From Trypanosoma brucei (taxonomy: Eukaryota), in assembly GCA_000002445.1 (NCBI GenBank), contig CM000208.1:1504001-1568000 (forward strand): DNA of 64,000 nucleotides. Direction: 5' to 3'. How positions within the stretch are numbered: position 1 is the stretch's first letter; every line of letters starts with the position of its first letter. The notes under the pieces are model-generated. The model had not been told where the DNA came from and searched no databases. It saw nothing but the letters and a program-made list of their open reading frames with translations. Below, in pieces: positions 9,855-27,164 of the stretch. Position numbers and translations under genes: made by a program.

Positions 9855-10319
9855 CTTCGTCTAACTCGCTCTTTCGTTAAGATGTGAAGGACTATAGCAC
9901 GTGTTAAGAGATTGAAAGAAGATGATGGGGCGACGCAGGGACTGTAGAGAGGAAATGATAAAATAAAGCAACCAAATGTTGGGTGGCAACCCAAGAGCAA
10001 GCATCTTATTTCGGTTGAGAAAAATGGCTTCTGTTAGACGGGCCGGCAGCGCTTCAGCGGCTCGAAAGAGAGCGCGACGAAACGGACAAAAGGAAAAATG
10101 GAACTACGTCTTAGTGCCAAGATGAGTCTCCCGAAACTTCTTTTGCCCACTTGAGGGGGCTCAAAGCTACCTTCAGTTGTTGTATTTACTTCCTCTAACC
10201 CCCTGAAAAGTCTCCATCGCCTTCGACAACCCCGTTATTTCCATATATGAATATTTCCACGACGAATGCAGAAGCGCCTGGGGCAGCCTAACTGATGCGC
10301 TTGGAGAAAACGAAACGGT

Positions 10320-10470
10320 AAGAAGAACAGTAGCAGAGTACGAGTACATTACCTAAGGAAGGGGAAACGAGACTGAAGCAGTGGAAGGAAGAGAGAAGGG
10401 GAAGGGAATGGAAGGGATGGGATGGGGGAACACAACCACAACACCCGTCACACCCCACACCCTCGAACTG
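10320..10470 (-). promoter_or_regulatory. Putative polypyrimidine tract between the proteasome alpha-5 3' end and the downstream small acidic gene (coupled polyadenylation / trans-splicing signal)
   Basis: Plus strand: gaaggggaaacgagactgaagcagtggaaggaagagagaaggggaagggaatggaagggatgggatggggg. That is a long CT-rich tract on the minus strand ~500 nt upstream of the ATG at 9854. Confidence 0.3.
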
Positions 10471-10541: not shown

Positions 10542-11342
10542 TCACTCCTCAACGTCAGGGGGTTGCTCGTGTAATTCATCATCATCCTCTTCGTTGTCTG
10601 CAACGGCGGGGATGTCTTCTGGGCGCGTCTTAAACCCATCCAGATACTTGCGCGCCTCTTCTTCCGTGAGAATAGTAAAGGGGGTGCCCTTTCCTACAAT
10701 GGCAATGGTGGTGTTTTTAATGTTCAGTTCTACACCACCAGAGGTCGCCGCGCCAAGAGCCCTCAACGCATGCATAACCAACTCGTCCAAATCACACGCG
10801 GGAAACCCTCTAAAGTGCCTCTCCAAGTAGGTACGTGCTGCCTGAGAACGCAACCCCATCGCGGTTGCCTTAAAATCAAACACATCACCTGAGGGCACCG
10901 TTTGGTAAAGGCGTGGCCCCTGGCGATCATAACCGGCAATTAAGAGACCGACACCAAAGGGACGCTTACCCGCAAATTGAATGTGGCGCTGGTGCTTCGC
11001 GCCCACCATGTCAGCAAGCATAACAAGTGGAGCGTCGCTATCGTGCATGTAGCGATAATTCATACATTCTGTACGTAGAAAACGAGAGAGCGCACGGCCG
11101 TCTGCCACGAGGCCACTGATTGCCATGCCAACGTGCTCATCCAATTTGAATGCCTTCTCTTGATAGGATGATAGCCCTGACACGGGATTGCGTTTCAAGG
11201 CCGTGAGTACGACATAATCGGCGCCCTTAACTCCAACCGCAGCGGAGCCATTGTTCACCGCCTCATTTGCGTATTCCACTTGAAACAACCTCCCGGTTGG
11301 GCTCCACGTGGTGGTATCCGTGTCGTACTGGTTTTTAAACAT
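10542..11342 (-). CDS. PSA5: 20S proteasome alpha subunit, alpha-5 type (266 aa)
   Basis: [40 protein letters not shown] matches the alpha-5 N-terminus (human PSMA5 [39 protein letters not shown]). Alpha-type fold throughout. Acidic C-terminal tail. Confidence 0.8.
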
Positions 11343-11642
11343 TTTGCCTCCTTCGCCAAACTTTCAGTGGGACCCAATTCTTTCTTTTTTATTATTCTGC
11401 TATCTATCCCCTTTTTTGTGTGTTTTGACGTTTCTCTTCTCAGTTTCTATGTCACCTCACCTATATCGAATGATGGAGCTCCTGGAAATACAATTACTTT
11501 CGTATATTTTATTGCCTTGTACCACAAAGTTCCTTCTTCTTGTCCTCTTCCTGACGCTTAAAAGTAGGGGACTTTATTTGCCTTTCTCCCGTCAACAGTT
11601 GCTTTTGTAGATTGTGAAAGTTCTTAAATAATTGTGTTTAGC

Positions 11643-11669
11643 ATATATATATATATATATATATATATA
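11643..11669. repeat. (TA)n microsatellite, ~13 units, followed by a (GT)-rich run
   Basis: gcatatatatatatatatatatatatatag seen directly. Confidence 0.9.
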
Positions 11670-14076
11670 GGCGTGTGTGTACACGTGTGCATCAAATACG
11701 TAATGAAAGAAACGAAGAAAAGAGCGATTAAGTTAACCCCTCAGTTGCGCAGAGTGACAGGTGATATAATGACATCGACTAAAGCAAATGAACACAAACA
11801 CAAACACCGTCAAGTGGACATCCGCAAGAGAAAATGCGTGACCTCCACTTGTGCGAATGTGTATGGGCAAGTGGATACGAAAAGGATAGAGAAAGAGACG
11901 CATGTAAGTAAATATTGGAATATTTTCGCGTATTTCAGCAAGCAATAGCAGCAAAGCAGGCTTCCTTCATTTGTCTTTTCCTCTTCCCCTAGGTCCATCT
12001 CACGACCTTTCTCTCTCTCTCGTTTGAAGTGAGAAAATTTTATTCAATGTAAAAAATGGGAAAGAGAGGGGAGGAAAACAAATAATAATGGAAGACCGTG
12101 GAAGAGCACATTTTTTTTCTTTTGAAAAAAAAAAGAGAACAGAAGTGGTCACCACAACCAAGCACCACAATATGTACAAAAAGAAAAACACACGCTTGTT
12201 AAGTACACTTTATTTTTGTTTGTTCGTTTTTTTTAACCTTTTAAAGTTTCTTCTGGTTTACGTTTCTCCCTTTCCCTCCACTACCTCTCCTCTCCCTGGG
12301 GAAGTAATTCAATCCATCTTATATTATCTCATTTTTCCTTCCCCCTCCCAGTTGTTTTTCCTTTGATTTATTTGCTAACGTTCATTTCTGTCTGCTCCCT
12401 TTACTTCACTCCCTTTTTTTGTTCTGTTTCCCTTTATCATACCGGGAGTTGACTCCTCAACTTATTTATAACCACGAGGTGACAATCCGAGAAAACAACC
12501 CAAACACACACGTTTCTGTTCGCCGCATTTTCTTTCGCGGCACTCAAAAATCACACGTAACCGAAAAATACACACACACGCATCTGAACCAATAAATTAA
12601 CACAGAAAACAAAGACACACACAAAAACATAAATATATACAAATACATCAAATATTTATATAAGTGTATATATTTCCCTCCATTTCCCTTATTCTCCTTC
12701 TCCCTCAAAAAAAAAAACCTTACTCCACCCCACACCCCTGAGCGTATTCGCTTTCTCCCTTTTGTTTGTCTGGTTATTTTTTTTTTGTTACTGTTGTTTG
12801 TTGTTTCGCCATAATTACACCTCTTTCTTCCTAATTTCCACACCCTATTATATTTTTGTTTTTCATCAACTTAATTTATTACGTCGTGTCTCATTTTCTC
12901 GTCAGGGAGAAGGGAGAGAGGGAAAGAGGAAAGAAATGAAAGGAAAAGCAAAGGATGCCACCACACATCCGTAACAAATGGAAGCAGAGTTGCTCAAAAT
13001 AGAAGAAAAAGAACAAAAGCAGCATTGGAAAGATGTGAGGGTGGGGTAAATTTTTTTCGAAAAAATAATAAAGAAGAAAGTGAATAAAATGAAAGGGTTA
13101 AACAAAAAGATGAGCAAAGGGTACATTCCCATCAGATGGAAATAGTTACAGAATAATGATAAACCACCCCAAAAATAAGGAGGGAGGGGGGAAAAAAACG
13201 AAAAGGGAAGGGAAGGGACGGCAGGGAAAAGAGCTGCTGCTACTGCAGCCCTTTTCCCCCCCCTTTTCTTTTTATTATTAGTCTTCAGACATTTTCTCTT
13301 CCCAATTTGTGCGCATGTGAAGGGGCATTTAAATGGATGTAACAATGATGGCACCGGGTGATGGAGAATCGCTGGCGTCATGTTTCGGGTTTTTTGCCTT
13401 TGTGACTACTTTTGTTGTTATTATGATTGCTTTTAGTTGTTGTCCTTGCTGTCGTGTCTGTATTTCCCCCTTTCATTCTTTTTGGTTCACATTTTCCACT
13501 AAATCTCCCACAATTATATTCTTTCCCTTTCATCCATGATAACACGGAAATTTCAGAGAGGGAAAATAAAACAAAAACAAAAAAGAAAGGATACCCTTAT
13601 CCACTCTTTCCTTCCTCTTTTCTTTATTTCATTCCGTTATTATTTCCCATTCATAGAGATATGCAACATCCCTTTTCCTTTCCCCCATCACTTCTCCTTC
13701 AGTACATCTTCTTAACAACTTCCATATCCCTTGAAATCCCACGTGTTCTCAGAAACAGTCCCTTTTTATATTAAAACAACAATCCTTTCATCGTTTTATC
13801 ATCAATTATTGCTTTCGTCACACATCCTTCACATCCCCCTTGCGCATCCCACCCCTCCCCCAAAATCCTTCCTGCTTCGCATTCACTAACCACAATTATT
13901 ATAACCATAATAACCTTCACTGGGGTTCTCCGCCTCAGCGACGGCACCGAAAGGAGCACACACGTGTGTGTGTGTTTTTTTTTTGTTGGTGTTGTTGTTG
14001 CTATTTCTTCCCCTCCACCTACTCACCCTTTTCTCCTCCCATCTCCCTTCCCTGTGTTTCTTTTGTCCTTTTGGGC

Positions 14077-17000
14077 TCAGTATGGCATCATGTTAGGGTT
14101 TCCCATCCCTCCAGCATATCCCTGACCGGGCACGCCACCGTAGCCCGGTTGCGGGTGGATGTTCACATTATGCATCGGAACTCCCATGGGCTGTGCTGGG
14201 CCTGCCTGAATCATCAGTGGGTCATTACCACCCGCATACCCAGGAACACCACCACGACGAGATCCATCTTTTGATGGCTGCATGCCGTCGTTAGCGCCCT
14301 TTTCCAAGCGTGATACCCGCTGAGTGAAGTCGTGGATGGCCTGAATGAGGTACGGCATGGCAATATTGATACGGTTGTTTAGCCAAGCCTTCTCAAGAAC
14401 CACGTCCGGAGACAAGTAGTCATAGCAGGCGTAAAGGCAGGAAACGAATGAATCTGGTCGTTCAACTGCAAAGAAGTCAAGAAGCTCCTCCACAACCTTT
14501 GGATCGGCGCTTTCGACAGCCGTGTCAATGGCCTCCTGGAAGAGCTTATTCTCCTTGGCCACCGCAAGGGCGTGGTCAAAGGCCTTGTGACGGCGGTGGA
14601 GGAAGAGAGCAATCTTGCGGAACTCAAACAACTCCATCTTCTCCAGCCGTGCGCTCAACTCCACAGAGTCGAAGTTGTTGTAGTTCTCTACAGAGTTACG
14701 TAAGGCCACAAAATTTTCTTCCTCCACGTACAGATCGTTCAGAGCATCGTTGATCAACCGGGAGTTGCGCGGTTGTGCGGATTCGAGGTATGGCAGAATC
14801 AGGTGAATCGGGGCAACATTTTTCACCTCACGGAGCACACGGTCGGGGTCAAGCACCTTGAACATGCTCGTCAGAAAGTCGCACAGGTTTTGAGGGCACG
14901 TATTGACGTAGAACGAAATCGCGTTATATACAAAATCGCTAGCACCCAGATGGCTTGCAACGTCCTTGAACACATCATGATCGAAGGCATCAGCAAAATG
15001 ACACATCATCGTCTTCGCCGCAGCCAACCAGTCCTCGTTGCCGACGTGGAGCACACGCAGGGCCAACCAGTGGTGGTATTCCTCGCAAACGGAGATCAAC
15101 TTGTGTGCGTTAATCTTCTTTGAGTACATGTGCACGTGCTCCAAGAGTTTCTCGGGTTTATACTTGGCAAGCTGTAGTCCCATTTCAGTGAAAATGCCCA
15201 TGTGCGCGCCAGAGTTAGTTGAGGCACTCTTGAGAACAGCGAACAGTTCATCATAAAGACCGTATGCCTCGTACCGGTTCACGACATCTTGCAGAGATTC
15301 CACCTGTAGAACGAGGGGAACCGCGCAAATAGCAGCAAGCCTTACATCGTTGGCCTCAATACAGGCATGGTTAACCGCATCCCATGTGCTGCGGGACTGG
15401 GCCTTCTGCGCAGCGTCCACAGCCTCAGCAAGGTTGTTCATGCGCACAAGCGTAAGGGCCAATTTATGGAAGTTCATGCTCATGGAGTAGAGCAGACGCG
15501 CTGAATCATAGTACCCATCTTCAAAGCACTTGTCAGCCACAGGTTGAATCTGTACATTGTGCGTGTTTTGCAGCAACTCTTCCAATTCTGACAGGCGTCC
15601 AGTTCTGGCGTACGTTAGCAACAAAACCGACTCAATCTTATTGTCGTTCGAAGTGGACTCCTGGCGTGCCATGTTGAGATACTTGACGAGGTCCCCGAAT
15701 TGGTTACTGCGCTCCGCTGCAGCAGTGACAGCATCAACGTAGTTGGGATTCTTCGCGCGAATGAGGACCTCAATGGCTTCACGCACCTCACCGGCGGCGA
15801 GGAGGTATTCTCCCAAAACTGTCCATACAGCAGGTAGGTTGCACCTCTGAGCGTACAACCGACCACGAGGAAGGTCCTTCAAATCGCGGAGTAAAACGGT
15901 GGCAGCCTCCATCCTCATTTCAAACTTGTCATAAACGGTCATCGCTTCCTCGTGCAGCTCTGCTGCGGTAGCGATGCCAGCGATTTCCTTCGCATCGTAG
16001 CTGTCAAGAGTGGTTACATACTCCATAACCTTTGCCTTGGATGCGCGGACAGCGGACATAATAAGGAGATTCTCCAAATAGCGGTTTTTCCTAAAGCGGC
16101 CACGGACGACGATCTGATCTAGTATAGAGGTCAGTTCCTCCGTCAGCTCCGCATCCATAAACGCCTTCACAGTGGTGCTCACCTCCTCCGTTACCTCAGA
16201 CTCGGGAAGTGCAGTTTGTTGAACCGCCTCAACGAGGCGGTCTCGGTTGATCGAGCTTTCCGTGAGCACAGACGCCCAAAGTGCAGGGTCCTGTTGTTTT
16301 ACAAGGTAGCGAGCAAGTTGCTTCCACATGCCATTCTTCGATGTGATCTCAACCAGTTCGGTGCTCATCTTAGCCTTGCGATAAACCAAATAGGACAGGT
16401 TGGGGTCGCGATCCTCGCAGTACTTACCCATGACCACTGGATCGTAGTAGTCGTTCTCCTCAATGAACTTCTCGGGTAAGTTACCACTGATGACCAAGAG
16501 TTTTGCAATAGCATTATGAAGGGCGGTATCCGTCTTTTTTTCCGCAAGTCGGGCTTCCAACCAGGGTCCAATGAGGCGAAGCCGACTGCGCTCTTCAGCG
16601 ACATCGACAAGTTCTGCAATCGGGCACATTGTACCCACTGAGTTTAGGATGTTCTTAATGAAGTCCTCTTGCACGTTACAGTCAATAAGCGCACCGACTA
16701 CCGCGGGTGTTTTCAGCGGGTTGCGGCGCTGCACGTACTGCTCAATAAGAGCTTCATTGTTTGTGTCAATCAGATAACGAATCAGTTCATCAACAAAATT
16801 GTGCTGGTCACAGACGTTGATAAGGGGCCAAAGGTTTGTCATTTTCTTGTTCTTCAGGTAGTTCTTCGTGCGCTCAGGGTCATAACACGGGCTCTCACGT
16901 GTCATGCGCTCGAGTTCCTGCACCTGCCCAACTTCAGCCGCTGCCTCAATATAGCGGAAGTGCACCTCTGGATCACGAGTGTACGGTACCACAGCGCCAA

Positions 17001-19188
17001 GGTAATAATACAGAATATCAAACAGTTTCCGCTCGAGGAACACGTTAATTAGTTTGTCCGCACCGAGCGCTTCATTGTACTTTGTTGCAACCTGCACAAT
17101 GATTTTGAAGTTCTGGTGATGGTTAGCAAGAAGGTCCTCTAGGCACTTCATGCTGTCTCCTGGGCTCAGTTTGCCGAAGAACTCGATAACCCAATCAGGG
17201 CTGAGCACTTGGGCATTAGAAAAGCAACGACGAATGTTAGCAAGGTTGTCAATGCCCGGGTCCATCCTCTGGGCCATTACATAGCACTCAATAGCGCGCT
17301 GCGGAAGGGAAGCGCGTTCACAGAGGGGCGCCAGCAACATGGCATCAAAGTGAACACACACACCGCGAGCAAAGATCTTCTCCGCAACCGACGGATGGGA
17401 ATGCTTCAGGTTAATCTCTAGAAGCTTCGTTTGGAGATCCTTTGTATTCTCTCCAGTGTTATCACGAAGGACTTCCAGAACGAACTCGGTTGCTTGCTGG
17501 ATGTGCTGAGCGGTCACGAACATATCCACAACTTCGATGGGGTCAACGACAGGCGCGTCACCCATGTCACGGTGCAATACTTGCGCGAGGCCCACGGCAC
17601 CTTGCGGGTTGACGTGTATTGCGTTGTTCAAGATGACGCGCCAGTTGGGGGTGAACCCAGCGCGTTTGCAGTACTCAACAGCCTTCTGTGTCTCGTTGCG
17701 TTGAAGGAGGACACCAACAACCTTTGCGTGTGCCTCCGCCTTGTGGTAGATTTTGATGGCAAGCTCTGGGTCCGCCGCTGACATAAGATCACCAAGTTCC
17801 TCGGAGGCGGTTAGTTTGTCAGCAGCATACTGTTGCTTCACGTAGTCGACACCACCCTTCGGTATAACGGCACGGGCAAGTTCTGCTGACTCATGCGCGT
17901 TAAGAGTGGTTTCGGCAACTGCCACCTTAAAGTAGGTGGAGATTGCGGGCTGCTGCCCCGGAATCGGCGGCATAAGTTGGAAGCGAGAAAGAATATCGGG
18001 ACCACGCAAGGCGTTGTTTGGTGCACGTAGGCATGTGCGCACCGCCTCCTCTATGTTCCCAGCACGAAGCTGGTTATCCAGCTGAACCCTGTACAGGTCA
18101 TCCACACCTCCCAGGTTAGCAGAGCCGGCAATGCGAAGGGCCAGATCAGCATTTTGCAATTGGTTTTTCACAAAGGGAACGATCGTATTGTCGTTTGGAG
18201 ACACGTGGAACACGGAGCCCGCGTTGTTCACGCACAGGATACCACCAGTCTTCGTGTAGGGTGTCCCGCAGAAAATGGTATTGTTCGGAAGTTGGTGAGT
18301 CTTAATGACCACTCCAGTGAAGAGGTCCATAAGCACCACGCTACCACGGCTTGTCACAACGGTGAGGAGTTTGTGTCGTGGTGAGACGTGTGTCGCAACG
18401 GGAAAGTCACCCTGAGCAAAGGGGACATCGATCATACGGCGCTGAACTGTGAGATCCGTTTTGGATCCTGTAGGAAGCTCCATGATCAAAATTTTCCCAC
18501 CTGTGGAGGGGTTGTTCCAAGCGAGGCACATCAAATTGCATGAGCGTGGGTCTGTCGGGGTGTTGGTGGAAATGAATGTTCCACTGTGACCGTCAAGCAC
18601 ACGGCCACTATTGTTTTCGACGCTGAAGAGTTGTGTTTTCCCCACCATACCCTCGGCAGTTCGCATAACACCACAAAGCATCAACCACTTCTTCTGCTCA
18701 TCTGTCTGGTAACTAAGAACCTGAAACGAGGCGTCAAACTCAGGGGCCCGCGAGAAGACCAACTGCGGTGGAGCATCGGCAGCTGTGTCCAGACTCCAGT
18801 GATACACTGCGGTATTAGAGACGATACCTACAGTGCGAGCATCAATCCAACACCAATAGACCACGTCCTCGTTGAACACAACCACCTTGAGACGATTAGC
18901 CGCGTCCACGTCGAATATCTGCAAGTTGCGGCCGCTGCGGAGTGCAAGAATCTTTGCCATAGGATTCATGATGGCTGACTCCGCATCACGTATACTGTTG
19001 CGCATGCTCTCCCGCTTCCCGAGATCCACGATAACAAGAGAGGTTTGACCATCAGGTTGCACATCGCGGATGCAAACGTACTTGTCGCTCTGCAGCGTCA
19101 GTGTCTTGAAGGAAATGGTTCCCGGTCTCAACCCACCAGAGACGGAGTTGAGTTGAAAGACCTCCGCAGAGGTTAGTGGATTATCCAT
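14077..19188 (-). CDS. CHC: Clathrin heavy chain (1703 aa)
   Basis: N-terminal beta-propeller MDNPLTSAEVFQLNSVSGGLRPGTISFKTLTLQSDKYVCIRD…. Repeated clathrin heavy-chain repeat (CHCR) helical zigzags. Gly/Pro/Met-rich C-terminus. Length and architecture are typical of CHC. Confidence 0.9.
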   Translation of the reverse strand: MDNPLTSAEVFQLNSVSGGLRPGTISFKTLTLQSDKYVCIRDVQPDGQTSLVIVDLGKRESMRNSIRDAESAIMNPMAKILALRSGRNLQIFDVDAANRLKVVVFNEDVVYWCWIDARTVGIVSNTAVYHWSLDTAADAPPQLVFSRAPEFDASFQVLSYQTDEQKKWLMLCGVMRTAEGMVGKTQLFSVENNSGRVLDGHSGTFISTNTPTDPRSCNLMCLAWNNPSTGGKILIMELPTGSKTDLTVQRRMIDVPFAQGDFPVATHVSPRHKLLTVVTSRGSVVLMDLFTGVVIKTHQLPNNTIFCGTPYTKTGGILCVNNAGSVFHVSPNDNTIVPFVKNQLQNADLALRIAGSANLGGVDDLYRVQLDNQLRAGNIEEAVRTCLRAPNNALRGPDILSRFQLMPPIPGQQPAISTYFKVAVAETTLNAHESAELARAVIPKGGVDYVKQQYAADKLTASEELGDLMSAADPELAIKIYHKAEAHAKVVGVLLQRNETQKAVEYCKRAGFTPNWRVILNNAIHVNPQGAVGLAQVLHRDMGDAPVVDPIEVVDMFVTAQHIQQATEFVLEVLRDNTGENTKDLQTKLLEINLKHSHPSVAEKIFARGVCVHFDAMLLAPLCERASLPQRAIECYVMAQRMDPGIDNLANIRRCFSNAQVLSPDWVIEFFGKLSPGDSMKCLEDLLANHHQNFKIIVQVATKYNEALGADKLINVFLERKLFDILYYYLGAVVPYTRDPEVHFRYIEAAAEVGQVQELERMTRESPCYDPERTKNYLKNKKMTNLWPLINVCDQHNFVDELIRYLIDTNNEALIEQYVQRRNPLKTPAVVGALIDCNVQEDFIKNILNSVGTMCPIAELVDVAEERSRLRLIGPWLEARLAEKKTDTALHNAIAKLLVISGNLPEKFIEENDYYDPVVMGKYCEDRDPNLSYLVYRKAKMSTELVEITSKNGMWKQLARYLVKQQDPALWASVLTESSINRDRLVEAVQQTALPESEVTEEVSTTVKAFMDAELTEELTSILDQIVVRGRFRKNRYLENLLIMSAVRASKAKVMEYVTTLDSYDAKEIAGIATAAELHEEAMTVYDKFEMRMEAATVLLRDLKDLPRGRLYAQRCNLPAVWTVLGEYLLAAGEVREAIEVLIRAKNPNYVDAVTAAAERSNQFGDLVKYLNMARQESTSNDNKIESVLLLTYARTGRLSELEELLQNTHNVQIQPVADKCFEDGYYDSARLLYSMSMNFHKLALTLVRMNNLAEAVDAAQKAQSRSTWDAVNHACIEANDVRLAAICAVPLVLQVESLQDVVNRYEAYGLYDELFAVLKSASTNSGAHMGIFTEMGLQLAKYKPEKLLEHVHMYSKKINAHKLISVCEEYHHWLALRVLHVGNEDWLAAAKTMMCHFADAFDHDVFKDVASHLGASDFVYNAISFYVNTCPQNLCDFLTSMFKVLDPDRVLREVKNVAPIHLILPYLESAQPRNSRLINDALNDLYVEEENFVALRNSVENYNNFDSVELSARLEKMELFEFRKIALFLHRRHKAFDHALAVAKENKLFQEAIDTAVESADPKVVEELLDFFAVERPDSFVSCLYACYDYLSPDVVLEKAWLNNRINIAMPYLIQAIHDFTQRVSRLEKGANDGMQPSKDGSRRGGVPGYAGGNDPLMIQAGPAQPMGVPMHNVNIHPQPGYGGVPGQGYAGGMGNPNMMPY

Positions 19189-19959
19189 CCTCGAGCTTTG
19201 TTAGTGTCTGTTCCTTTTCTTCTCACTCTTTGACGATTTTTTGGGGTTTCCCCTAGTTTGTCCTAATGACTCAGTTTACCCTTTTTTTTTCTCTTTACTC
19301 CCTTTATTTTTTTTTTTTGGTATTGTTGAAGAAAAGTGGTTCACTGACGGTCAAAACACTTCGCAGGTCTTGTTCTTCGCTTATGATACTTGGCTCCTCT
19401 TCTTTCCTTTTTGTTTCCTCTTACTCTTGCTTTTTATTATTTATTTTCTTTTTCCTTCCTCCTTCCCCTACTCTTCTCTTGTCCTCCTTTTTCCTCCTCT
19501 TTTTCCTTGTGTGTGTATGTGTGTTTCCCAAACTTTGCTTCTTCTATTGTCCTAATGTATAGCCACTGCTACTTTCACTTACGTTTCCCCTGAAGCAGTT
19601 TTTTTTTTTTTTGAGGGAGGGTTGCAGCGTGTAGATAAAGCAATCGAACTGACCTTTCTTCCGCGCGCTCGCACGTGTGGCACCGTCGATAATAGTGAAC
19701 AAAAAAAGCGATGGGTTAAAGTATAAATAATGACAAAAACAAAATAAAGAGCAGATATTACAAGCAAACAAAAATACAAATTGACCTTCAATCGTTGACT
19801 CTCACTTCACGTTCCTTCGTTGTATTTTTCCCCCTTCACTCAGAAAAAAAAAGTTTCCTCTCCTTCTTTTCTTTATATCTGGTTCTTCCGAAACAACGAT
19901 AACAATGACGGCAATATGTATTATTATTAAGTTGTCAGTTCGCCGGACGAAGCAGCAAG

Positions 19960-20100
19960 TGGCGCGGCAAACCATACATGAAGTAGTGGTAGTAGAATGG
20001 GGGGAAAAAGGGAGGCGAGGAAAGCGGAAAGAGAAAAAAGTGAAGAAAAGTGAGACAGTTGAAAAAAAAAAAAGCACAAAATGACACCACAGTAAACCCC
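19960..20100 (-). promoter_or_regulatory. Putative polypyrimidine tract / spliced-leader acceptor region for the clathrin heavy chain mRNA (minus-strand sense)
   Basis: The plus strand is strongly purine-rich here (gggggaaaaagggaggcgaggaaagcggaaagagaaaaaagtgaagaaaagtgagacagttgaaaaaaaaaaaagc). That means a long C/T tract on the coding strand ~800 nt upstream of the CHC ATG. Kinetoplastid trans-splicing uses a polyY tract followed by AG. The exact acceptor AG is not determinable by eye. Confidence 0.3.
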
Positions 20101-20343
20101 TCGAAGTAACTCAAAGCAGAAAAGAAAGGGTGGACAATGTATGAAACAACATAAGGGAGTCGAGAACTGTTAACCCATCCTCAAATGCCCTCCTTCACTT
20201 ATGTGTATCAAACACAAATTTCAATGTGCCTTCATTAAAAAAATTAAAGAGAATTAGTTAACCGCATCGTAAATTAATCACTTTTTATATGCATCTGCAA
20301 CACATATACAGGTACGTTAAAGTACATACACGGGTACATGTCC

Positions 20344-20421
20344 CCACACAGACACACACACAGGACACACAGACACACACACACACACATATATATGCAT
20401 ATATATATATATATATATATA
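20344..20421. repeat. Compound microsatellite (CA/GACA)n then (TA)n
   Basis: cacacagacacacacacaggacacacagacacacacacacacacatatatatgcatatatatatatatatatatata. Confidence 0.9.
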
Positions 20422-23284
20422 AGCATAAACAAAATGTGTGTGAATACATGTGCTAGTAAAGCAGCAGCGGATCCCACCACTGTGAGATGTGGCTCCACTT
20501 TCGGTCCCCACTGCTTCCTTCCGGTCCCTCCCGATTGAAAACTCGCCACCCCGCCGCACTCGACTACACGGCTCCCGCACCGCGCCGCACCGCACACACC
20601 GCCACGCCCCCGCTAACTTCTACGGAGTTCGTCAAAACACTCCGACATGCCGACACCTCCTGTAAAAAGTCGTCAAAGACAAAACCGTCCGCCCCTCTTG
20701 GAGGGACACAACAGCCAACCTCCACCGCAACGAAAACGCAATTAAATAAATAAGCATATAAATAATGTCAAGAACAAGGGAAGCCTCCCCTACGAGGCCA
20801 CGCGCCACCAAACACAAGACACAAAACACACAATACAGCCAACCCCACCGCGAGACTGAACGGTAACATGCACTAACTACAGAAATCCCTACACCACTAC
20901 GGTAAACTAAGCAATTCAAAACTGTACTCTAGAGCTTCATCGGCCGAACACACAGCCAAAAAAAAAAAAACGGATTTCCCCCTTTTTTTTTCCAAAACCA
21001 TAAACAAAAACTTGCGTGAATAAATCCAAAAAGGAACGCCACGCGTGTGTTCACCCCCTGCCCAACGTCCATTACATTTTCCTTGAGCAATACATCATGA
21101 GACTCAACATAGGCATAAACATATTGATGTAAATATGTTTACATGCGAATATATTATCCTACTTCTCTTATGCATCTACATTTCAATGAATATCGGTCCC
21201 ACCAACGTCACCTGCCCGAGTTCGACAGAGGAAGCGACTAGCAAACCTTTACACAATGGATGAAAAGAGAAAAACAAACAAAAACAATTATCCGGTAACG
21301 TACCCCATTTTGTCACCTACCCCTTCCCCCGCTATTCCACCAAACAATAATAATGATAATCGTAAATAACAGAATTACACATCAGTTGGTGTGTAACAGC
21401 AACTGTGCGCAATAAAACTACCGCAAATATCCATCCCCTCCCCTTTTCCCATCCCAACGGCCACCGCCCTTCCGTGAGTTATCAGACCGAATCAACGGCA
21501 ACGGCAGCGGGAAAATATGGAAAAGAGAGGGATGAAATGAAACGAACGAGCGAATGGTGTGGAAACCTTGGGGAACAGTCATAATGAGTAACGGAGAAAA
21601 ATTAGAAAAACGAAGTAAACGAAAAGACCGAACGGCTTCTGGGAGGTCAATAACGAAAAAAAAAACAGTTCAAGGAACCCGAGAATGGAAGAGGTAAAGG
21701 AAAAAAGAAAGGGAAAAGAAACAGGACAAAAAAGGAAAGAAAGAGAAAAAAAATGCGCCAACACACAAAGCGGCAGAAGCAAGCACGCGCAAAGATAAGG
21801 CAAGCATGCGGTGCTATGCTCGAACCGTACAAGCACTCGACATATGGACAGTTAAAGAAAATGGGCAGCGTTTTTGCGTTGTTTCGTTTTGTCTCTGCTT
21901 TGTATTGCGAAAAACAACAACAAAAATCTTACATTGCCCTTTTCGCTTTCGAGATTTTCTTTAGTTTGATATGTGCATATCTGAATCTCCTGTTTTCTGT
22001 GTTTTCGTTTCCTACTTTCATTTTTTTATTTGATATAGGTAGTTGGTGAGAACCCACTGGTGTTGCGCTTGCAGATCGTCCAAGTAAGGGTGAAACGAAC
22101 CCGCGCGCAAACACGAGTGGACATGCACAGAAAGAGGGAAGGAAAGAAAGAAGTGCTTGAATATGCAAAAAAGGAAGAAAAGAGCAGGCAAATTGAATAC
22201 CCATCCACATAAGAGGAAGTCTCCTCCACGGGGCATAAACTGCCTTTGCTCATCGATGTGCACACTTTTGAAGTATCGCATTCACCTCTTCAAGTGGTCC
22301 TGTTGCCTTCCAGCAGCGCACACCTCTTCTCATTGCCGTTACACCATTCTTGACTCTCCACTCCTTTGACTTTTCCATCCCTCCTCTCCGCTCTATTCAA
22401 CATAACGCCCTCACCTGTCCCTTTTATCACTCCCCTCCTCCCACCCACATCCAAATGTATTTACCGGCAATTTTCCTCCCACTCCTTCACACTCCATCTT
22501 TCCCCCTTATCCCATCCCCACACTTTTCCTGCTTGTCAATCGCTACGTGACCCGTATATCAAAGTAGGTACGCAAATTCTTCGAGTGGTCACCAGCGAAG
22601 AGAAAAACACGCAAAGACGTAAACTCATGATTGCTCCTCCGCTTCATCCCGTGATGGTACGCTCAGCCACAACCTGTACCGGCAACCACACGCAAACAGG
22701 CAAACGCGGAAAGTAACAAACACAAGAACTTACGCGTGCCATTTATGGGGTGATGAAATATGGAGGGTTGGAGACGTTTCAATATGTCTCCAAAGGAGGA
22801 GAGAAAAAGTAAAAAATAAATAACAAAAGAATGTGCCCAGTAATGGAGACAAAACCCTTAAGGGAACCACGAGCGAAGTGGGTAGACACCTCTCATTTTT
22901 CACGAAAACGATAGAATTACGGGACGCGACGTAGGGGAGTATTTTGATGTCCCCCACTCACCTTACGCCCCCCTCCAACGATCATGATATTGGAGAGCAT
23001 TATAACGTTATTTCCCCCCTTTTAATTTTTTTACTTTTTTTGCTTTTTTTTTGCTCTTTTTTTCCGTTTCGTCTCCTAATGTGGTTTATTTTACTATTTC
23101 CTCCCCCCACTTCCTTCTCTCTTTTCCATCCATTTTACACGTTTAGTGAAGCTCAGACGTTGTAGCACTACAGTAAAATCCTTACCTCCTAACAACTTAC
23201 AAAACTGGAATGCTGTAATGTGTCATCCACCATCTGTTTACACTACGACCACCACCCACAACAAAAACAAAATGAAAAGCACAC

Positions 23285-23640
23285 ATTATTGTTTCTTTAT
23301 TACGGATCCCACAGACTCCACAAATATATAAGTACAGTCAAATCGGAGAAGAGTAGTGAGATGGCACCGCTTTATGGCGAAAGTATAGGTAGGCGTCGCG
23401 TGTTCACATTGCGAGGACGGACGGTACATCGGCACCCCTCCTTTACTATCAGTTACCTTATTTCACAGGGCAGGCACGGCTGAGGTGACCGGGTTGGCCA
23501 CAGTTGTAGCATGCGCGTCCACCACCAGCAGCAGCACCGCCAGCAGCAGCGTCAGCAGGGGCATTCGGGCACTCACGGGCAATATGACCCTCCTGTTGAC
23601 AGTGGTAGCACGCACGGCCACCACCCATATTTCCGCCACG
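23285..23640. repeat. Segmental duplication, copy 1: UMSBP2 3' flank plus C-terminal coding (perfect identity about 23285..23500, then diverged)
   Basis: attattgtttctttattacggatcccacagactccacaaatatataagtacagtcaaatcgg…ggtgaccgggttggccacagttg is identical to 25149..25364, including the last 14 codons (…CYNCGQPGHLSRACPVK*). Confidence 0.9.
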
Positions 23641-24099
23641 CATGTTGGGGCACTCGCGGCTGAAATGACCGGGCTGACCGCAATTGTAACAGGCGCGTCC
23701 ACCACCCATCGGAGCGCCACCCATCGGGCCACCACGCATGTTGGGACACTCGCGGCTGAAATGACCGGGCTGACCGCAATTGTAACAGGCGCGTCCACCA
23801 CCCATCGGAGCGCCACCCATCGGACCACCACGCATGTTGGGACACTCGCGGCTGAAATGACCGGGTTGACCGCAATTGTAACAGGCGCGTCCACCACCCA
23901 TGGGTGCAGGTCCGCGGTTGCTGGGGCAATCACGACTTAAGTGGTCGGGTTGGCCACAGGTGTAGCAGGCACGGTCGCCCATTGCCCCTGGGGGAACGTT
24001 CGGACATTCCCTCGCAAAGTGGCCGGGCTGACCGCACCGGTGGCAGTTATTTCCGCCCTCAGCGCGGTGCCTTTTAGCAGTGGAAGCTTCGTCCGCCAT
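23458..24099 (-). CDS. UMSBP2: Universal minicircle sequence binding protein 2; CCHC zinc-knuckle protein with 7 CX2CX4HX4C fingers (214 aa from MADEASTAKRH)
   Basis: Seven CCHC knuckles (CHRCGQPGHFARECP, CYTCGQPDHLSRDCP, 3x CYNCGQPGHFSRECP, CYHCQQEGHIARECP, CYNCGQPGHLSRACP). The ORF-track start at 24234 adds 45 aa of UTR-like sequence. The internal ATG at 24099 gives the canonical N-terminus. Sits directly downstream of CHC, as expected for the UMSBP pair. Confidence 0.8.
   Translation of the reverse strand: MADEASTAKRHRAEGGNNCHRCGQPGHFARECPNVPPGAMGDRACYTCGQPDHLSRDCPSNRGPAPMGGGRACYNCGQPGHFSRECPNMRGGPMGGAPMGGGRACYNCGQPGHFSRECPNMRGGPMGGAPMGGGRACYNCGQPGHFSRECPNMRGGNMGGGRACYHCQQEGHIARECPNAPADAAAGGAAAGGGRACYNCGQPGHLSRACPVK
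23617..23904. repeat. Three near-perfect 96-bp tandem repeats inside the UMSBP2 CDS, each encoding one zinc knuckle plus a Gly/Met/Pro linker (RACYNCGQPGHFSRECPNMRGGPMGGAPMGGG)
   Basis: The direct nucleotide repeat catgttgggacactcgcggctgaaatgaccgggctgaccgcaattgtaacaggcgcgtccaccacccatcggagcgccacccatcgg(g/a)ccaccacg occurs 3x. It produces the alternative-frame ORFs 23463..23933(-), 23485..23940(+) and 23573..23929(-). Confidence 0.85.
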
Positions 24100-25148
24100 T
24101 GTTCTTGCAAAGTTGGCTGAAAGTGTTTTAAAAACTTGAGGAAAGCTAGTTCTCCAGAAGAATGTGGAGGTGAAAGGGGACAGAAACGGAATAATGTAGA
24201 ATGGTGCAGAAGCCACGCACGCACAAATTAGCAACGGTACAACGAAAGGATGATAAAGTGGATGCTCTCCTCGCCGCTTAAAGAATTGTCACGTTTTCTT
24301 CATGCACACAATTGAGGGGGTTCCTTGGGGAAAGGACAGAGGCACACTCCCCGACTACACTCTTACGCGGATGTCTTCCCATCGGTTGAAAATTACCCAC
24401 TCGAAGGACATCCCCTGACTTCCACTGGGTCGACGCACATCACATGGACCACGTGGTGGCTGTCGTCGGCATCGTCTGCATGCCCTTAGAGCCAGGCAAA
24501 TTAACGCGGCGTGAACTACAAACCCATACGATCCCCAAGTCAGCCATGAATGGTACCTTATGAATTTGCCCTCTTTCCTCTTCACTAACACAAAAAGAAA
24601 GGGGGAAAAGGGAAAAGGAACACTGTACTGCATCGGTAATACATGGAAGGATGAAAGTGCCCGCTAACGAGGAAATGCAACACTCGACACATCCGAAGTT
24701 ATTTCAGCATGGTCCTCAGTAATTACAAAGAGGTTGCCGTGATAAGAGAAATGGGAAACCCCCATTTCAAGAAACACAGGCCCCCATGTGTGAAAAAAAA
24801 AAATTCTTTTTTTCGTTCATGTTTGTAAATTTCCTTTCCTCTCTCCGTCTTCTTACCTTTCTTTTTATTTATACCGAGGATACCTCACCCTCGCTTTCTA
24901 CCACTACGTTCTTCGGCCCTCCAAGAAATTCTTACCTCCTGTCCCTCTTTCCTTTCATTAGTTATTTTTTCTTATACTTTCTCTTTCCTTCCCTTATTTA
25001 TTTCTTAAAACTCTTTGCCAACGCTAACAAAGTGATGTTACGATCTACCTTCCTCTCATTCCATTCTCGAGTACTCCTCTTGCGCCCATCCAAAACAAAA
25101 AAAATAAGTAAAAAAAGGAGAAAAAAGAGAGTCTCTTCACACTCCCAG

Positions 25149-25490
25149 ATTATTGTTTCTTTATTACGGATCCCACAGACTCCACAAATATATAAGTACA
25201 GTCAAATCGGAGAAGAGTAGTGAGATGGCACCGCTTTATGGCGAAAGTATAGGTAGGCGTCGCGTGTTCACATTGCGAGGACGGACGGTACATCGGCACC
25301 CCTCCTTTACTATCAGTTACCTTATTTCACAGGGCAGGCACGGCTGAGGTGACCGGGTTGGCCACAGTTGAAGCACGCGCGGCCGCCAGCAGCAGCGTCA
25401 GCAGGGGCATTCGGGCACTCACGGGCAATATGACCCTCCTGTTGACAGTGGTAGCACGCACGGCCACCACCCATATTTCCACCAGAGCGC
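25149..25490. repeat. Segmental duplication, copy 2: UMSBP1 3' flank plus C-terminal coding
   Basis: Same as above. Offset 1864 bp, which fits a tandem gene duplication unit. Confidence 0.9.
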
Positions 25491-25744
25491 GCATTGGGGC
25501 AGTCGCGGCTGATGTGACCGGGGCGACCGCAGTTGTAGCATGAGCGTCCACCGCCCATATTTCCGCCGGTGCGTGCATTGGGGCAGTCACGGCTGATGTG
25601 GTCAGGTTGACCGCAGTTGTAGCATGAGCGGCCACCGCCCATGTTTCCGCCAGAGCGCGCATTGGGGCACTCACGGCTCATGTGGCCAGGCTGACCGCAA
25701 TTATAGCATGTGCGGGCGTTTGACATCTGCATGTTATCAGCCAT
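25322..25744 (-). CDS. UMSBP1: Universal minicircle sequence binding protein 1; CCHC zinc-knuckle protein with 5 fingers (140 aa)
   Basis: MADNMQMSNARTCYNCGQPGHMSRECPN… Five CX2CX4HX4C knuckles. Tandem paralogue of the upstream gene. The last ~14 codons and ~200 bp of 3' flank are identical between the two copies. Confidence 0.8.
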   Translation of the reverse strand: MADNMQMSNARTCYNCGQPGHMSRECPNARSGGNMGGGRSCYNCGQPDHISRDCPNARTGGNMGGGRSCYNCGRPGHISRDCPNARSGGNMGGGRACYHCQQEGHIARECPNAPADAAAGGRACFNCGQPGHLSRACPVK

Positions 25745-26222: not shown

Positions 26223-27164
26223 CTATGCACTCTGAGAAGAATAACGGTCATACAGTTTGGTTTGGTCATCCCGCGATATCTGAGTCCATCCTTTCGGGTG
26301 AACATGATAAACAGTCACAATGCCACCAGAGGCACCGTCACGATACGTCGCGTGGAAGATTGAGCGGCGCGCCAGGTCACATGCCTCCTCAACAGTGAGG
26401 TTCTTCCGGTAGCCCTGGTCAAGCACACCATAGGCATAAATGGAACCGGATCCCACACTAAAAATTTCATGCTTTACACGCGTGCCCTTGTCGTCCACGT
26501 AATAAAGGGACGGCCCAAACTGATCCCAACCAGCCACCATTGTTCCCATAGATAGCCCGTGGTTGCGGTATTGGTAGGTTATATTTGCCAGAATCTTGCT
26601 TGCGGCTGCTACAGAGATACGGCAGTTGTTACGTAGCTCCCACAGGCGGCACTCCATGCCGAGAACGCGCTCCCAGTACTGGCAATCTGCTGCACCACCA
26701 GCCATCGTACCAAGAAGATATTCGTTTATCTCCAGTACCTTCATAACCGTTTGAGAAGAAATATACTGGCCGGATGAGGCACGGGAGTCAACGGCAATAA
26801 TTATCCCACCGTCAAAGTGAAACCCCAGTGTTGTGGTGCCTTTTTTCATGTCAAGTTTAGGAACACTGCGCGGCACTGGACACGGTAACATGAGTTTCCA
26901 TATGCGTCTGTCAGAGTTGATGCAGTTGCTTGTGCAAAGCGGATCCCTCGTAAGTTCTTCTCCACTGTAGGGCATCACGCTGAAATCGTCCGTGCGATCA
27001 GCACTCACTCCAAGGGGATTATTCAAACCTAGAGCAGATCCATCTTCAGCTGCATCGTTTACACCGGGAATGTTATGCCAAGTGAAAGGACCGATGCGAG
27101 GGCAATCCTTCAGGGAGAACTCCGAGCGGAGAACACTTTCAAAATCTGCCAACATCACCCCCAA
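26223..27164 (-). CDS. PSB5: 20S proteasome beta-5 subunit (catalytic, chymotrypsin-like) with a long N-terminal propeptide (313 aa precursor)
   Basis: Mature region [71 protein letters not shown]…[14 protein letters not shown] is near-collinear with human PSMB5 ([31 protein letters not shown]…). The Thr1 motif is preceded by a ~107-aa propeptide. Confidence 0.9.

What the first reader, a model, noticed from the sequence alone, without database searches (positions are those of the whole stretch)
23285..25744. Tandem UMSBP paralogues (5- and 7-finger) with a perfectly conserved 3' flank and 96-bp intragenic tandem repeats
The two CCHC zinc-knuckle genes share an identical ~215-bp block: the last 14 codons plus ~170 bp of 3' UTR. 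The 5' parts have diverged (MADNMQMS… versus MADEASTAKRH…). The 7-finger copy holds three near-identical 96-bp units, each encoding one knuckle plus a GGPMGGAPMGGG linker. Such repeats are prone to unequal crossing-over or gene conversion. So finger number may vary between strains, and short-read assemblies may collapse the array. The conserved 3' UTR could mean shared post-transcriptional regulation of the pair, or recent gene conversion. UMSBPs bind the kinetoplast minicircle replication origin sequence, so dosage and finger number are functionally relevant.
Basis: partly seen in the sequence, partly recalled or inferred. Interest (0 to 1): 0.5.

Follow-up and report, generated by a model that had tools for sequence, protein, structure and literature searches.

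The report
Known trypanosome UMSBP1/UMSBP2 gene pair
These are the two already-studied Trypanosoma brucei zinc-knuckle DNA-binding genes UMSBP1 and UMSBP2; their near-identical tail and internal repeats are best explained by ordinary gene conversion between old tandem duplicates, which also breaks short-read assemblies.

Summary
Two minus-strand CCHC zinc-knuckle genes (213 aa with 7 knuckles; 140 aa with 5) share an exact 222-nt run: the last 15 codons, the stop and 173 nt downstream. Near-identity continues about 130 nt further upstream, across both C-terminal knuckles. The 7-knuckle gene holds 2.8 copies of a 96-bp unit at 98% identity.

Lengths, knuckle numbers and synteny match the published TbUMSBP1 (Tb927.10.6070) and TbUMSBP2 (Tb927.10.6060).

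The duplication is old: T. cruzi has orthologues of both. Upstream third codon positions differ at 50/87 sites, against 3/52 inside the block. T. cruzi paralogues share their own 675-nt 3' block with an unrelated UTR sequence. Paralogue-specific variants are distributed as a mosaic among three T. brucei-group assemblies. Recurrent gene conversion is therefore the best explanation.

Short-read contigs end 28-30 nt into the block. One assembly has exact in-frame unit losses (4 and 5 knuckles), which may be real or artefact. Knuckle counts of 7 and 5 are otherwise conserved across the Trypanosoma species that carry each gene.

Ordinary and largely known; low interest.

The parts
23458..24099 (-). 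UMSBP2 coding sequence (213 aa, 7 CCHC zinc knuckles); equals Tb927.10.6060 by length, knuckle number and position
   Evidence: ORF list and translation; Pfam zf-CCHC in 7 stretches, E = 1.6e-60; literature gives 213 aa and 7 fingers
25322..25744 (-). UMSBP1 coding sequence (140 aa, 5 CCHC zinc knuckles); equals Tb927.10.6070
   Evidence: literature gives 140 aa and 5 fingers; the identical protein is called in T. b. gambiense DAL972
23285..23634 (-). UMSBP2 copy of the paralogue-shared 3' block: last two knuckles, stop codon and 173 nt of 3' flank. Exact runs are 23285-23506 and 23537-23634; the patch 23507-23536 holds 3 substitutions and an 18-nt insertion.
25149..25480 (-). UMSBP1 copy of the shared 3' block (exact runs 25149-25370 and 25383-25480)
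   Evidence: short-read contigs of relatives end at the equivalents of 25453 and 25451, 28-30 nt into this block
23636..23901 (-). 96-bp tandem array inside UMSBP2 (2.8 copies, 98% matches). Each unit is one knuckle plus the linker GGPMGGAPMGGG.
   Evidence: TRF score 511; units listed for three assemblies
25446..25715 (-). Degenerate 84-bp tandem array inside UMSBP1 (3.2 copies, 84% matches)
   Evidence: TRF; longest exact inter-unit match is only 22 nt
25110..25131 (-). Polypyrimidine tract (on the transcribed strand) that starts about 18 nt beyond the 3' end of the UMSBP1 copy of the shared block. It is a possible RNA-processing signal; its function is inferred only.
   Evidence: Sequence
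26223..27155 (-). Upstream neighbour, proteasome beta-5 subunit; the synteny anchor used to fetch related loci
   Evidence: 100% identical to an nr entry '20S proteasome beta 5 subunit [Trypanosoma brucei]' over 81% of its length; exact protein found in three T. brucei-group assemblies
14077..19188 (-). Downstream neighbour, clathrin heavy chain (1703 aa); marks the end of the syntenic interval
   Evidence: ORF; Pfam Clathrin families on the equivalent genes in L002, L005 and L009

Best explanation
The region is the known tandem gene pair UMSBP1 (5 knuckles) and UMSBP2 (7 knuckles) of a Trypanosoma brucei-group chromosome 10. Both sit in one minus-strand polycistronic unit between the proteasome beta-5 gene and the clathrin heavy-chain gene.

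The duplication is ancient; it predates the T. brucei / T. cruzi split. The 3' third of both genes (the last two knuckles plus the first 173 nt after the stop) is kept nearly identical by recurrent short-tract gene conversion between the paralogues. The central knuckle-plus-linker units inside each gene are homogenised by the same kind of unequal exchange or conversion. As a result, linker sequences are species-specific while the knuckle numbers stay at 7 and 5.

Shown here: identity of the genes, the sharp identity boundary, the parallel pattern in T. cruzi, the mosaic of variants among strains, and the contig breaks. Inferred: the recombination mechanism itself, and whether the homogenised flank has any regulatory role.
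For: Identity of the genes:
- Lengths and knuckle numbers equal the published TbUMSBP1 and TbUMSBP2.
- The gene identifiers are adjacent, Tb927.10.6070 and Tb927.10.6060.
- The neighbouring proteasome gene is 100% identical to a T. brucei entry.
- T. cruzi has the same gene order, with a gene annotated UMSBP1.

Old duplication:
- The N-termini are orthologous across species. UMSBP1: MADNMQMSNARTCYNCGQPGH (T. brucei), MADNAMTRGSRACYNCGQPGH (T. cruzi), MADNGMTRGDRACYNCGQPGH (T. rangeli). UMSBP2: MADEASTAKRHRAEGGNNCHRCGQPGHFARECP (T. brucei), MAEEIPMNKRPRIEGGGSTCHRCGETGHFARECP (T. cruzi), MTDDAPITKRSRVEGGGSTCHRCGEAGHFARECP (T. theileri).
- Upstream of the block, the aligned coding sequence of the two T. 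brucei genes is 66.7% identical, with 50/87 third positions different. Inside the block, 3/52 third positions differ and 0/173 flank positions differ (Fisher p = 1.8e-10).
- Sequence on either side of the genes is about 50% identical.

Concerted evolution:
- The C-terminal segment is 97.8% identical between the T. brucei paralogues, but only 72-78% identical to T. cruzi, T. theileri or T. rangeli.
- The T. cruzi paralogues share their own block of 675 nt at 95.9% identity, including about 295 nt after the stop.
- That T. cruzi flank is not alignable with the T. brucei flank, although it is alignable with that of T. theileri.

Ongoing exchange:
- In the window, the UMSBP2 flank carries the UMSBP1 state (GGGAT). 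In two other assemblies it carries GAGTT.
- DAL972 UMSBP2 carries the UMSBP1-type Phe codon, and DAL972 UMSBP1 carries the UMSBP2-type GGT.
- The three 96-bp units differ from one another at 3 sites in the window but are identical to one another in DAL972.

General precedent: gene conversion that includes UTRs and spans stop codons is documented for T. brucei tandem arrays (PMC1855330).
Against: - No formal recombination test (GENECONV or a phylogenetic network) on population data was run. The mosaic rests on three assemblies and a handful of sites, so recurrent mutation or assembly error at single sites is not excluded.
- Selection could contribute to the flank's identity. The T. cruzi and T. 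theileri flanks are recognisably conserved with each other. A short stretch, AAAGGAGGG followed 6 nt later by AUGUAC, lies at the same distance from the stop in T. brucei and T. theileri.
- The published T. brucei sequences themselves could not be fetched for a residue-by-residue comparison.
Confidence: 0.85

Rival explanations
1. The identical 3' flank is maintained mainly by purifying selection on a shared post-transcriptional control element. The mRNAs for the mitochondrial and the nuclear DNA-binding proteins would then be co-regulated, for example in S phase through a PUF-type protein.
For: - In this window the 173-nt flank is identical in both genes.
- It contains AUGUACC at 23423-23429 and 25287-25293. 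This is 6 of 7 positions of the PUF9 consensus UUGUACC cited in the bioRxiv paper 10.1101/2022.05.10.491326.
- T. theileri has AUGUAC at the same offset from its stop codon.
- Both transcripts fall together after irradiation of T. evansi (PMC9136415).
- The T. cruzi and T. theileri flanks are conserved with each other.
Against: - Synonymous sites in the adjoining coding sequence are homogenised too (3/52 against 50/87). Selection on a UTR would not do that.
- There is no detectable flank similarity between T. brucei and T. cruzi.
- T. cruzi lacks the AUGUAC stretch.
- No significant RNA structure is predicted (z = -0.78) and there is no Rfam match.
- UGUACC occurs at the chance rate on this strand of the window (15 found, 15.6 expected).
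- In two other assemblies the two flanks differ at 2 sites.
- The true poly(A) sites are unknown, so the block may be only the first part of much longer, unrelated UTRs.
- Co-variation in RNA-seq may partly reflect reads that map to both copies.
Confidence: 0.12
2. The identity is an artefact of this assembly: reads from the two paralogues were merged, so the two 3' ends look identical.
For: Short-read assemblers do fail at this block. The window's UMSBP2 flank differs from two other assemblies exactly at sites where it matches UMSBP1.
Against: Two independent assemblies show the same block with the same boundaries and only 2-5 differences. One of them is the capillary-sequenced DAL972. Within the block the window keeps paralogue-specific differences: the 18-nt insertion, the Tyr/Phe codon and a CGCGCA/CGCGCG site. 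A merged consensus would not keep these.
Confidence: 0.03
3. A single recent event, either one long conversion or a partial re-duplication of the 3' end, produced the block. There has been no continuing exchange.
For: Within one genome the pattern (one sharp boundary, near-zero divergence) is what a single recent event would give.
Against: - T. cruzi shows the same phenomenon independently, with its own sequence.
- Paralogue-state variants are arranged differently in three closely related T. brucei-group assemblies, which needs several short events.
- Unit variants in the 96-bp array are also arranged differently in the window and in DAL972.
Confidence: 0.1

Closest known systems
TbUMSBP1 (Tb927.10.6070) and TbUMSBP2 (Tb927.10.6060) of Trypanosoma brucei (Milman et al. 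2007; Klebanov-Akopyan et al. 2018, PMC6125633; Soni et al. 2023, PMC10287944)
   Same: 140 aa with 5 CCHC knuckles and 213 aa with 7 CCHC knuckles; adjacent genes; T. brucei-group sequence context.
   Different: Nothing found. The published sequences could not be retrieved for a residue-level comparison. The papers read here do not mention the shared 3' block or the 96-bp units, although the authors used a 'TbUMSBP2 specific 198-bp fragment' for RNAi.
T. cruzi UMSBP1/UMSBP2 pair (locus L001, GCA_015033625.1)
   Same: Same gene order after proteasome beta-5, with 5- and 7-knuckle genes. The paralogues share a near-identical 3' block that runs into the 3' flank. The 7-knuckle gene has three homogenised central units.
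   Different: The block is longer (675 nt; nearly all of UMSBP1). The linker is TRPPGAMGG rather than GGPMGGAPMGGG, and the flank sequence is unrelated. UMSBP1 is frameshifted in that assembly. A third gene with 8 knuckles follows, which the T. brucei window lacks.
Tandem gene arrays of T. brucei under concerted evolution (Jackson 2007, PMC1855330)
   Same: Tandem duplicates in a polycistron. Conversion tracts often include UTRs and can span the stop codon, and non-coding parts are sometimes less divergent than coding parts.
   Different: That paper's main text does not mention UMSBP, 'minicircle' or 'zinc finger'. Here only the 3' third is homogenised, while the paralogues have distinct N-termini and, according to the literature, distinct compartments.
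CNBP/ZNF9-type proteins and Leishmania HEXBP (multi-CCHC single-strand nucleic-acid binders)
   Same: Small proteins made only of CCHC knuckles joined by Gly-rich linkers. Database hits are named cellular nucleic acid-binding protein, HEXBP or 'gig suppressor'. The L. martiniquensis syntenic gene has 10 knuckles.
   Different: Identity is only 35-55% and knuckle numbers differ. The only solved-structure sequence hits are retroviral Gag and nucleocapsid knuckles.

Membership tests
UMSBP (universal minicircle sequence-binding protein) family | Protein built of 5-9 CCHC-type zinc knuckles (C-X2-C-X4-H-X4-C) with no other domain | tested here: met
   Pfam zf-CCHC in 7 and 5 stretches, with only zinc-knuckle families above their cut-offs. 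A motif scan counts 7 and 5. The range of 5-9 comes from PMC6125633.
UMSBP (universal minicircle sequence-binding protein) family | Agreement with the published T. brucei genes: 140 aa / 5 fingers and 213 aa / 7 fingers, adjacent on chromosome 10 | tested here: met
   Lengths; literature values; adjacent identifiers. Chromosome 10 follows from FN554973, the tenth of the 11 DAL972 chromosome accessions FN554964-FN554974.
UMSBP (universal minicircle sequence-binding protein) family | Synteny with an annotated UMSBP in another trypanosomatid | tested here: met
UMSBP (universal minicircle sequence-binding protein) family | [quoted passage not shown] | not testable with these tools
   Known only from the literature.
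Tandem duplicates under concerted evolution by gene conversion | In the affected segment, paralogues are more alike within a species than orthologues are between species, while unaffected segments keep orthology | tested here: met
   The C-terminal segment is 97.8% identical within T. brucei and 95.9% within T. cruzi, against 72-78% between species. The N-termini group by paralogue.
Tandem duplicates under concerted evolution by gene conversion | Sharp boundary between a near-identical tract and diverged sequence, including at synonymous sites | tested here: met
   3/52 against 50/87 third-position differences, Fisher p = 1.8e-10. Sequence beyond both ends is about 50% identical.
Tandem duplicates under concerted evolution by gene conversion | Paralogue-specific variants shared or swapped among strains (mosaic pattern) | tested here: met
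   Six-sequence alignment of three assemblies by two paralogues. It rests on few sites and only three assemblies.
Tandem duplicates under concerted evolution by gene conversion | Significant result in a formal recombination test on population data | not tested
PUF9-bound S-phase mRNAs of T. brucei | UUGUACC motif in the 3' UTR | tested here: inconclusive
   The shared flank has AUGUACC, a 6/7 match, at 23423-23429 and 25287-25293. An exact UUGUACC lies at 24236-24242 in the spacer before UMSBP2. The motif core occurs at the chance rate in the window.
PUF9-bound S-phase mRNAs of T. brucei | S-phase peak of the mRNA and physical association with PUF9 or EIF4E2 | not testable with these tools
   UMSBP mRNAs are not among the targets named in the text read.

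The most novel reading that the evidence does not exclude
The conversion-maintained module (two C-terminal knuckles plus the proximal 3' UTR) is selected because it couples expression of the mitochondrial origin-binding protein with that of the telomere-binding protein, linking kinetoplast and nuclear DNA cycles. In addition, the 4-knuckle UMSBP1 and 5-knuckle UMSBP2 seen in one assembly are real alleles. From memory, that assembly is a T. equiperdum strain. The alleles would then reflect altered constraint in a lineage with a degenerate kinetoplast.
Probability: 0.08. Interest if true: 0.5.

Novelty: already known. Interest (0 to 1): 0.2.

Why it matters
The value is mostly practical.

- **Reagents.** The last 46 coding nucleotides and the next 173 nt are identical in the two genes. 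C-terminal in-situ tagging, 3'-UTR replacement, probes, RNAi fragments or guide RNAs designed in this stretch cannot tell UMSBP1 from UMSBP2. The 2018 study tagged UMSBP2 with the PCR-based pMOTag2H system. Its primers were not seen here, so this is a caution and not a criticism. Clones need checking by product size or by PCR from unique flanks.
- **Short-read data.** Assemblies, variant calls and RNA-seq counts at this locus are unreliable. Contigs stop inside the block. One assembly shows whole-unit losses that may be artefacts.
- **Evolution.** The locus is a tidy example of concerted evolution acting on only part of a gene pair whose products now work in different compartments. Knuckle number (7 and 5) is held constant across Trypanosoma while the linker sequences turn over.

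Tried and rejected
- Homology searches with the whole UMSBP2 protein and with its N-terminal 102 residues were swamped by generic CCHC proteins. They returned no T. brucei-group or T. congolense UMSBP.
- Exact look-ups of both proteins found nothing in the protein collection, and UMSBP2 is on no contig on record. UMSBP1 is on record only in DAL972.
- The T. melophagium hit could not be traced to DNA.
- The way round was to search with the neighbouring proteasome gene and fetch the syntenic loci.
- A literature search for the assembly accession GCA_003543875 found nothing. A search that included a project number I guessed returned irrelevant papers and should be disregarded. That this assembly is T. 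equiperdum IVM-t1 therefore rests on my memory only.
- The 2007 PNAS paper that first described the two genes is not held.
- A recent T. brucei pangenome preprint does not mention UMSBP.
- There are no Rfam matches anywhere in the window.
- The shared flank does not fold better than shuffled sequence.
- I considered that the 84-bp and 192-bp deletions in L009 are simple de Bruijn collapses. For UMSBP1 this is unlikely: the longest exact inter-unit match is 22 nt and the junction microhomology is 6 nt. For UMSBP2 it is plausible if that strain's units are identical to each other, as they are in DAL972.
- I considered that Logan contigs ending at 25669-25674 mark a heterozygous deletion. I rejected this because they run 5-10 nt past the junction along the full-length allele.
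- The Crithidia-type cycling element (C/A)AUAGAA(G/A), a consensus I recall from memory, was looked for by eye in the flank. Only an imperfect GAUAGUAAAG is present.
Full report
**What is in the sequence**

Two ORFs lie on the minus strand: 23458..24099 (213 aa) and 25322..25744 (140 aa). They are made only of CCHC zinc knuckles, seven and five respectively (Pfam zf-CCHC, E = 1.6e-60 and 1.5e-44).

The longest exact run shared by the two loci is 222 nt, 23285-23506 = 25149-25370. It covers the last 15 codons, the stop and 173 nt beyond it.

A short patch follows (23507-23536 versus 25371-25382) with three substitutions and an 18-nt insertion in the longer gene. Then comes a second exact run of 98 nt, 23537-23634 = 25383-25480. 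The shared block is therefore about 350 nt in one gene and 332 nt in the other. It includes both C-terminal knuckles.

The longer gene has a 96-bp tandem array at 23636-23901 (2.8 copies, 98% matches). The shorter gene has an older-looking 84-bp array (3.2 copies, 84% matches). Only two copies of the block exist in the window, and shuffled sequence never gives two.

**What the genes are**

The lengths and knuckle numbers are exactly those published for T. brucei UMSBP1 (140 aa, 5 fingers) and UMSBP2 (213 aa, 7 fingers) (PMC6125633; PMC10287944). A review gives them the adjacent identifiers Tb927.10.6070 and Tb927.10.6060 (PMC10719067).

The upstream neighbour, proteasome beta-5, is 100% identical to a T. 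brucei database entry. Its exact protein occurs in three T. brucei-group assemblies. One of these is T. b. gambiense DAL972 chromosome 10; the accession range was verified in PMC2854126.

T. cruzi has the same order: proteasome beta-5, then a gene annotated UMSBP1, then a 7-knuckle gene. All large ORFs of the window are on the minus strand, as expected for a trypanosome polycistron. The gene pair is therefore already known and well studied.

According to those papers, UMSBP2 is nuclear, binds the telomeric G-strand, is essential for chromosome-end protection and remodels chromatin. UMSBP1 is the likely mitochondrial origin-binding protein.

**Why the 3' ends are identical**

The duplication is old. 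UMSBP1-type N-termini (MADN...) occur in T. brucei, T. cruzi and T. rangeli. UMSBP2-type N-termini (...CHRCG..GHFARECP) occur in T. brucei, T. cruzi and T. theileri.

Upstream of the block, the aligned coding sequence of the two T. brucei genes is 66.7% identical, with 50 of 87 third positions different. Inside the block only 3 of 52 third positions differ, and none of the 173 flank positions differ (Fisher p = 1.8e-10). Sequence beyond either end of the genes is about 50% identical, which is essentially unrelated.

The C-terminal segment is 97.8% identical between the T. brucei paralogues but only 72-78% identical to the orthologues of three other species.

T. cruzi repeats the pattern independently. 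Its paralogues share 675 nt at 95.9% identity, including about 295 nt after the stop. Yet that flank cannot be aligned with the T. brucei flank, although it aligns well with that of T. theileri.

This is the signature of concerted evolution by gene conversion. It is not conservation since the duplication. Selection on a UTR would also not homogenise synonymous sites.

**Evidence that exchange continues**

Three T. brucei-group assemblies were compared: the window, L009 and L010. The paralogue-specific variants are arranged differently in each.

- The window's UMSBP2 flank carries the UMSBP1 state (GGGAT), whereas the other two assemblies carry GAGTT. The 'perfect' conservation is therefore particular to this strain.
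- DAL972 UMSBP2 has the UMSBP1-type Phe codon in the last knuckle.
- DAL972 UMSBP1 has the UMSBP2-type GGT codon.

Inside UMSBP2, the three 96-bp units differ from each other at three sites in the window but are identical to each other in DAL972.

Across species the central linkers are species-specific: GGPMGGAPMGGG in T. brucei, TRPPGAMGG in T. cruzi and TKTAGGAGGAGG in T. theileri. The number of knuckles nevertheless stays at seven. UMSBP1 has five knuckles in T. brucei, T. cruzi and, as far as its contig goes, T. rangeli.

Gene conversion that reaches into UTRs and spans stop codons is a documented general property of T. brucei tandem arrays (PMC1855330). That paper's main text does not mention this pair.

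**Does knuckle number vary, and do assemblies fail here?**

Assembly failure is clearly shown.

- The T. equiperdum OVI contig ends at the equivalent of window 25453, 28 nt into the block. That assembly used Velvet with k = 33 on MiSeq reads (PMC5278650).
- A Logan contig ends at 25451.
- None of the Logan contigs that carry the neighbouring proteasome gene holds a complete UMSBP1.
- In other trypanosomatids, contigs likewise end, or an N-run sits, inside the first CCHC gene after the proteasome gene.

True variation in knuckle number is less clear. Assembly GCA_003543875.1 (L009) differs from the window by an exact 84-bp deletion in UMSBP1 (25602-25685, giving 4 knuckles and 112 aa). It also has an exact 192-bp deletion in UMSBP2 (23674-23865, giving 5 knuckles and 149 aa). 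Otherwise only scattered single-base differences were found.

From memory, this is T. equiperdum IVM-t1. That genome was built mainly from MiSeq reads with ABySS at k = 68, plus very few PacBio reads (PMC6395869).

- The UMSBP1 deletion is hard to explain as a k-mer collapse. The longest exact inter-unit match is 22 nt, and the junction has 6 nt of microhomology.
- The UMSBP2 deletion is exactly what a collapse of three identical units would give, and DAL972 shows that the units can be identical.

The capillary-sequenced DAL972 has the same unit numbers as the window. I therefore regard polymorphism in knuckle number as possible but unproven.

**The regulatory alternative**

The shared flank contains AUGUACC (23423-23429 and 25287-25293). 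This is one mismatch from the PUF9 consensus UUGUACC described for S-phase mRNAs. T. theileri has AUGUAC at the same offset from its stop codon. Both transcripts change together in one T. evansi RNA-seq study.

Against this:

- The motif core occurs at the chance rate on this strand.
- T. cruzi lacks the stretch.
- The flank has no significant predicted structure, and there is no Rfam match.

Poly(A) sites are unknown. A polypyrimidine tract follows the UMSBP1 block (25110-25131). However, the next start codon is about 1.0 kb further on, and 4.2 kb of ORF-poor sequence follows UMSBP2. The block may therefore be only the start of long, unrelated UTRs.

A regulatory role is not excluded, and it could be the reason conversion is tolerated. 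It is not needed to explain the data.

**Verdict**

This is a real feature, correctly located, in a known gene pair. The best explanation is recurrent gene conversion and unit homogenisation in old tandem duplicates (confidence about 0.85).

It is useful as a warning for reagent design and for short-read analysis at this locus. It is also a neat partial-gene example of concerted evolution. It is not surprising to a specialist.

Noticed in passing
window 19189-23457: About 4.2 kb with no ORF of 150 aa or more lies between UMSBP2 and the clathrin heavy-chain gene. In T. cruzi and T. theileri this interval holds a third CCHC gene (about 192 aa, 8 knuckles); L. martiniquensis has a related gene with 6 knuckle motifs. 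tblastn finds no remnant of it in the window. The interval may instead be a long UMSBP2 3' UTR.
   Followed up: partly
L010 (T. b. gambiense DAL972) 13058-13699, equivalent to window 23981 and 23910: UMSBP2 carries a +1 insertion and a -1 deletion 71 nt apart. The first creates a stop after 56 codons, before the frame is restored. This is either a consensus error in the capillary assembly or a disrupted copy of a gene reported to be essential.
   Followed up: partly
L009 (GCA_003543875.1) 11411-11749 and 12971-13420: UMSBP1 has 4 knuckles (112 aa) and UMSBP2 has 5 knuckles (149 aa), through exact deletions of whole units of 84 bp and 192 bp. It is undecided whether these are real alleles or assembly collapse.
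   Followed up: partly
L002 (T. theileri) 10936-11885: Only a UMSBP2-type gene (205 aa, 7 knuckles) follows the proteasome gene. No UMSBP1-type gene is present at the syntenic position in this assembly.
   Followed up: no
L001 (T. cruzi GCA_015033625.1) 10001-10403: The gene annotated UMSBP1 is frameshifted in its last two knuckles. The correct C-terminus is readable in another frame, which probably reflects indel errors in the assembly.
   Followed up: no
L004 end (T. rangeli), L006-L008 ends (unnamed Logan trypanosomatid), L005 11598-12295 (Phytomonas EM1): Contigs end, or a run of N sits, inside the first CCHC-repeat gene after the proteasome gene. Assembly failure at this gene is therefore general among trypanosomatids.
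   Followed up: partly
window 24786-25220 (+): A 144-aa low-complexity ORF lies on the opposite strand and overlaps the shared block. The equivalent is called as a gene in DAL972 (L010 11937-12371). It looks like an annotation artefact of pyrimidine-rich spacer.
   Followed up: no
window 24236-24242 (-): An exact UUGUACC (the PUF9 consensus) lies about 135 nt upstream of the UMSBP2 start codon. It could sit in a long UMSBP1 3' UTR or in the spacer. The motif occurs 6 times on this strand of the window, against 3.9 expected.
   Followed up: no
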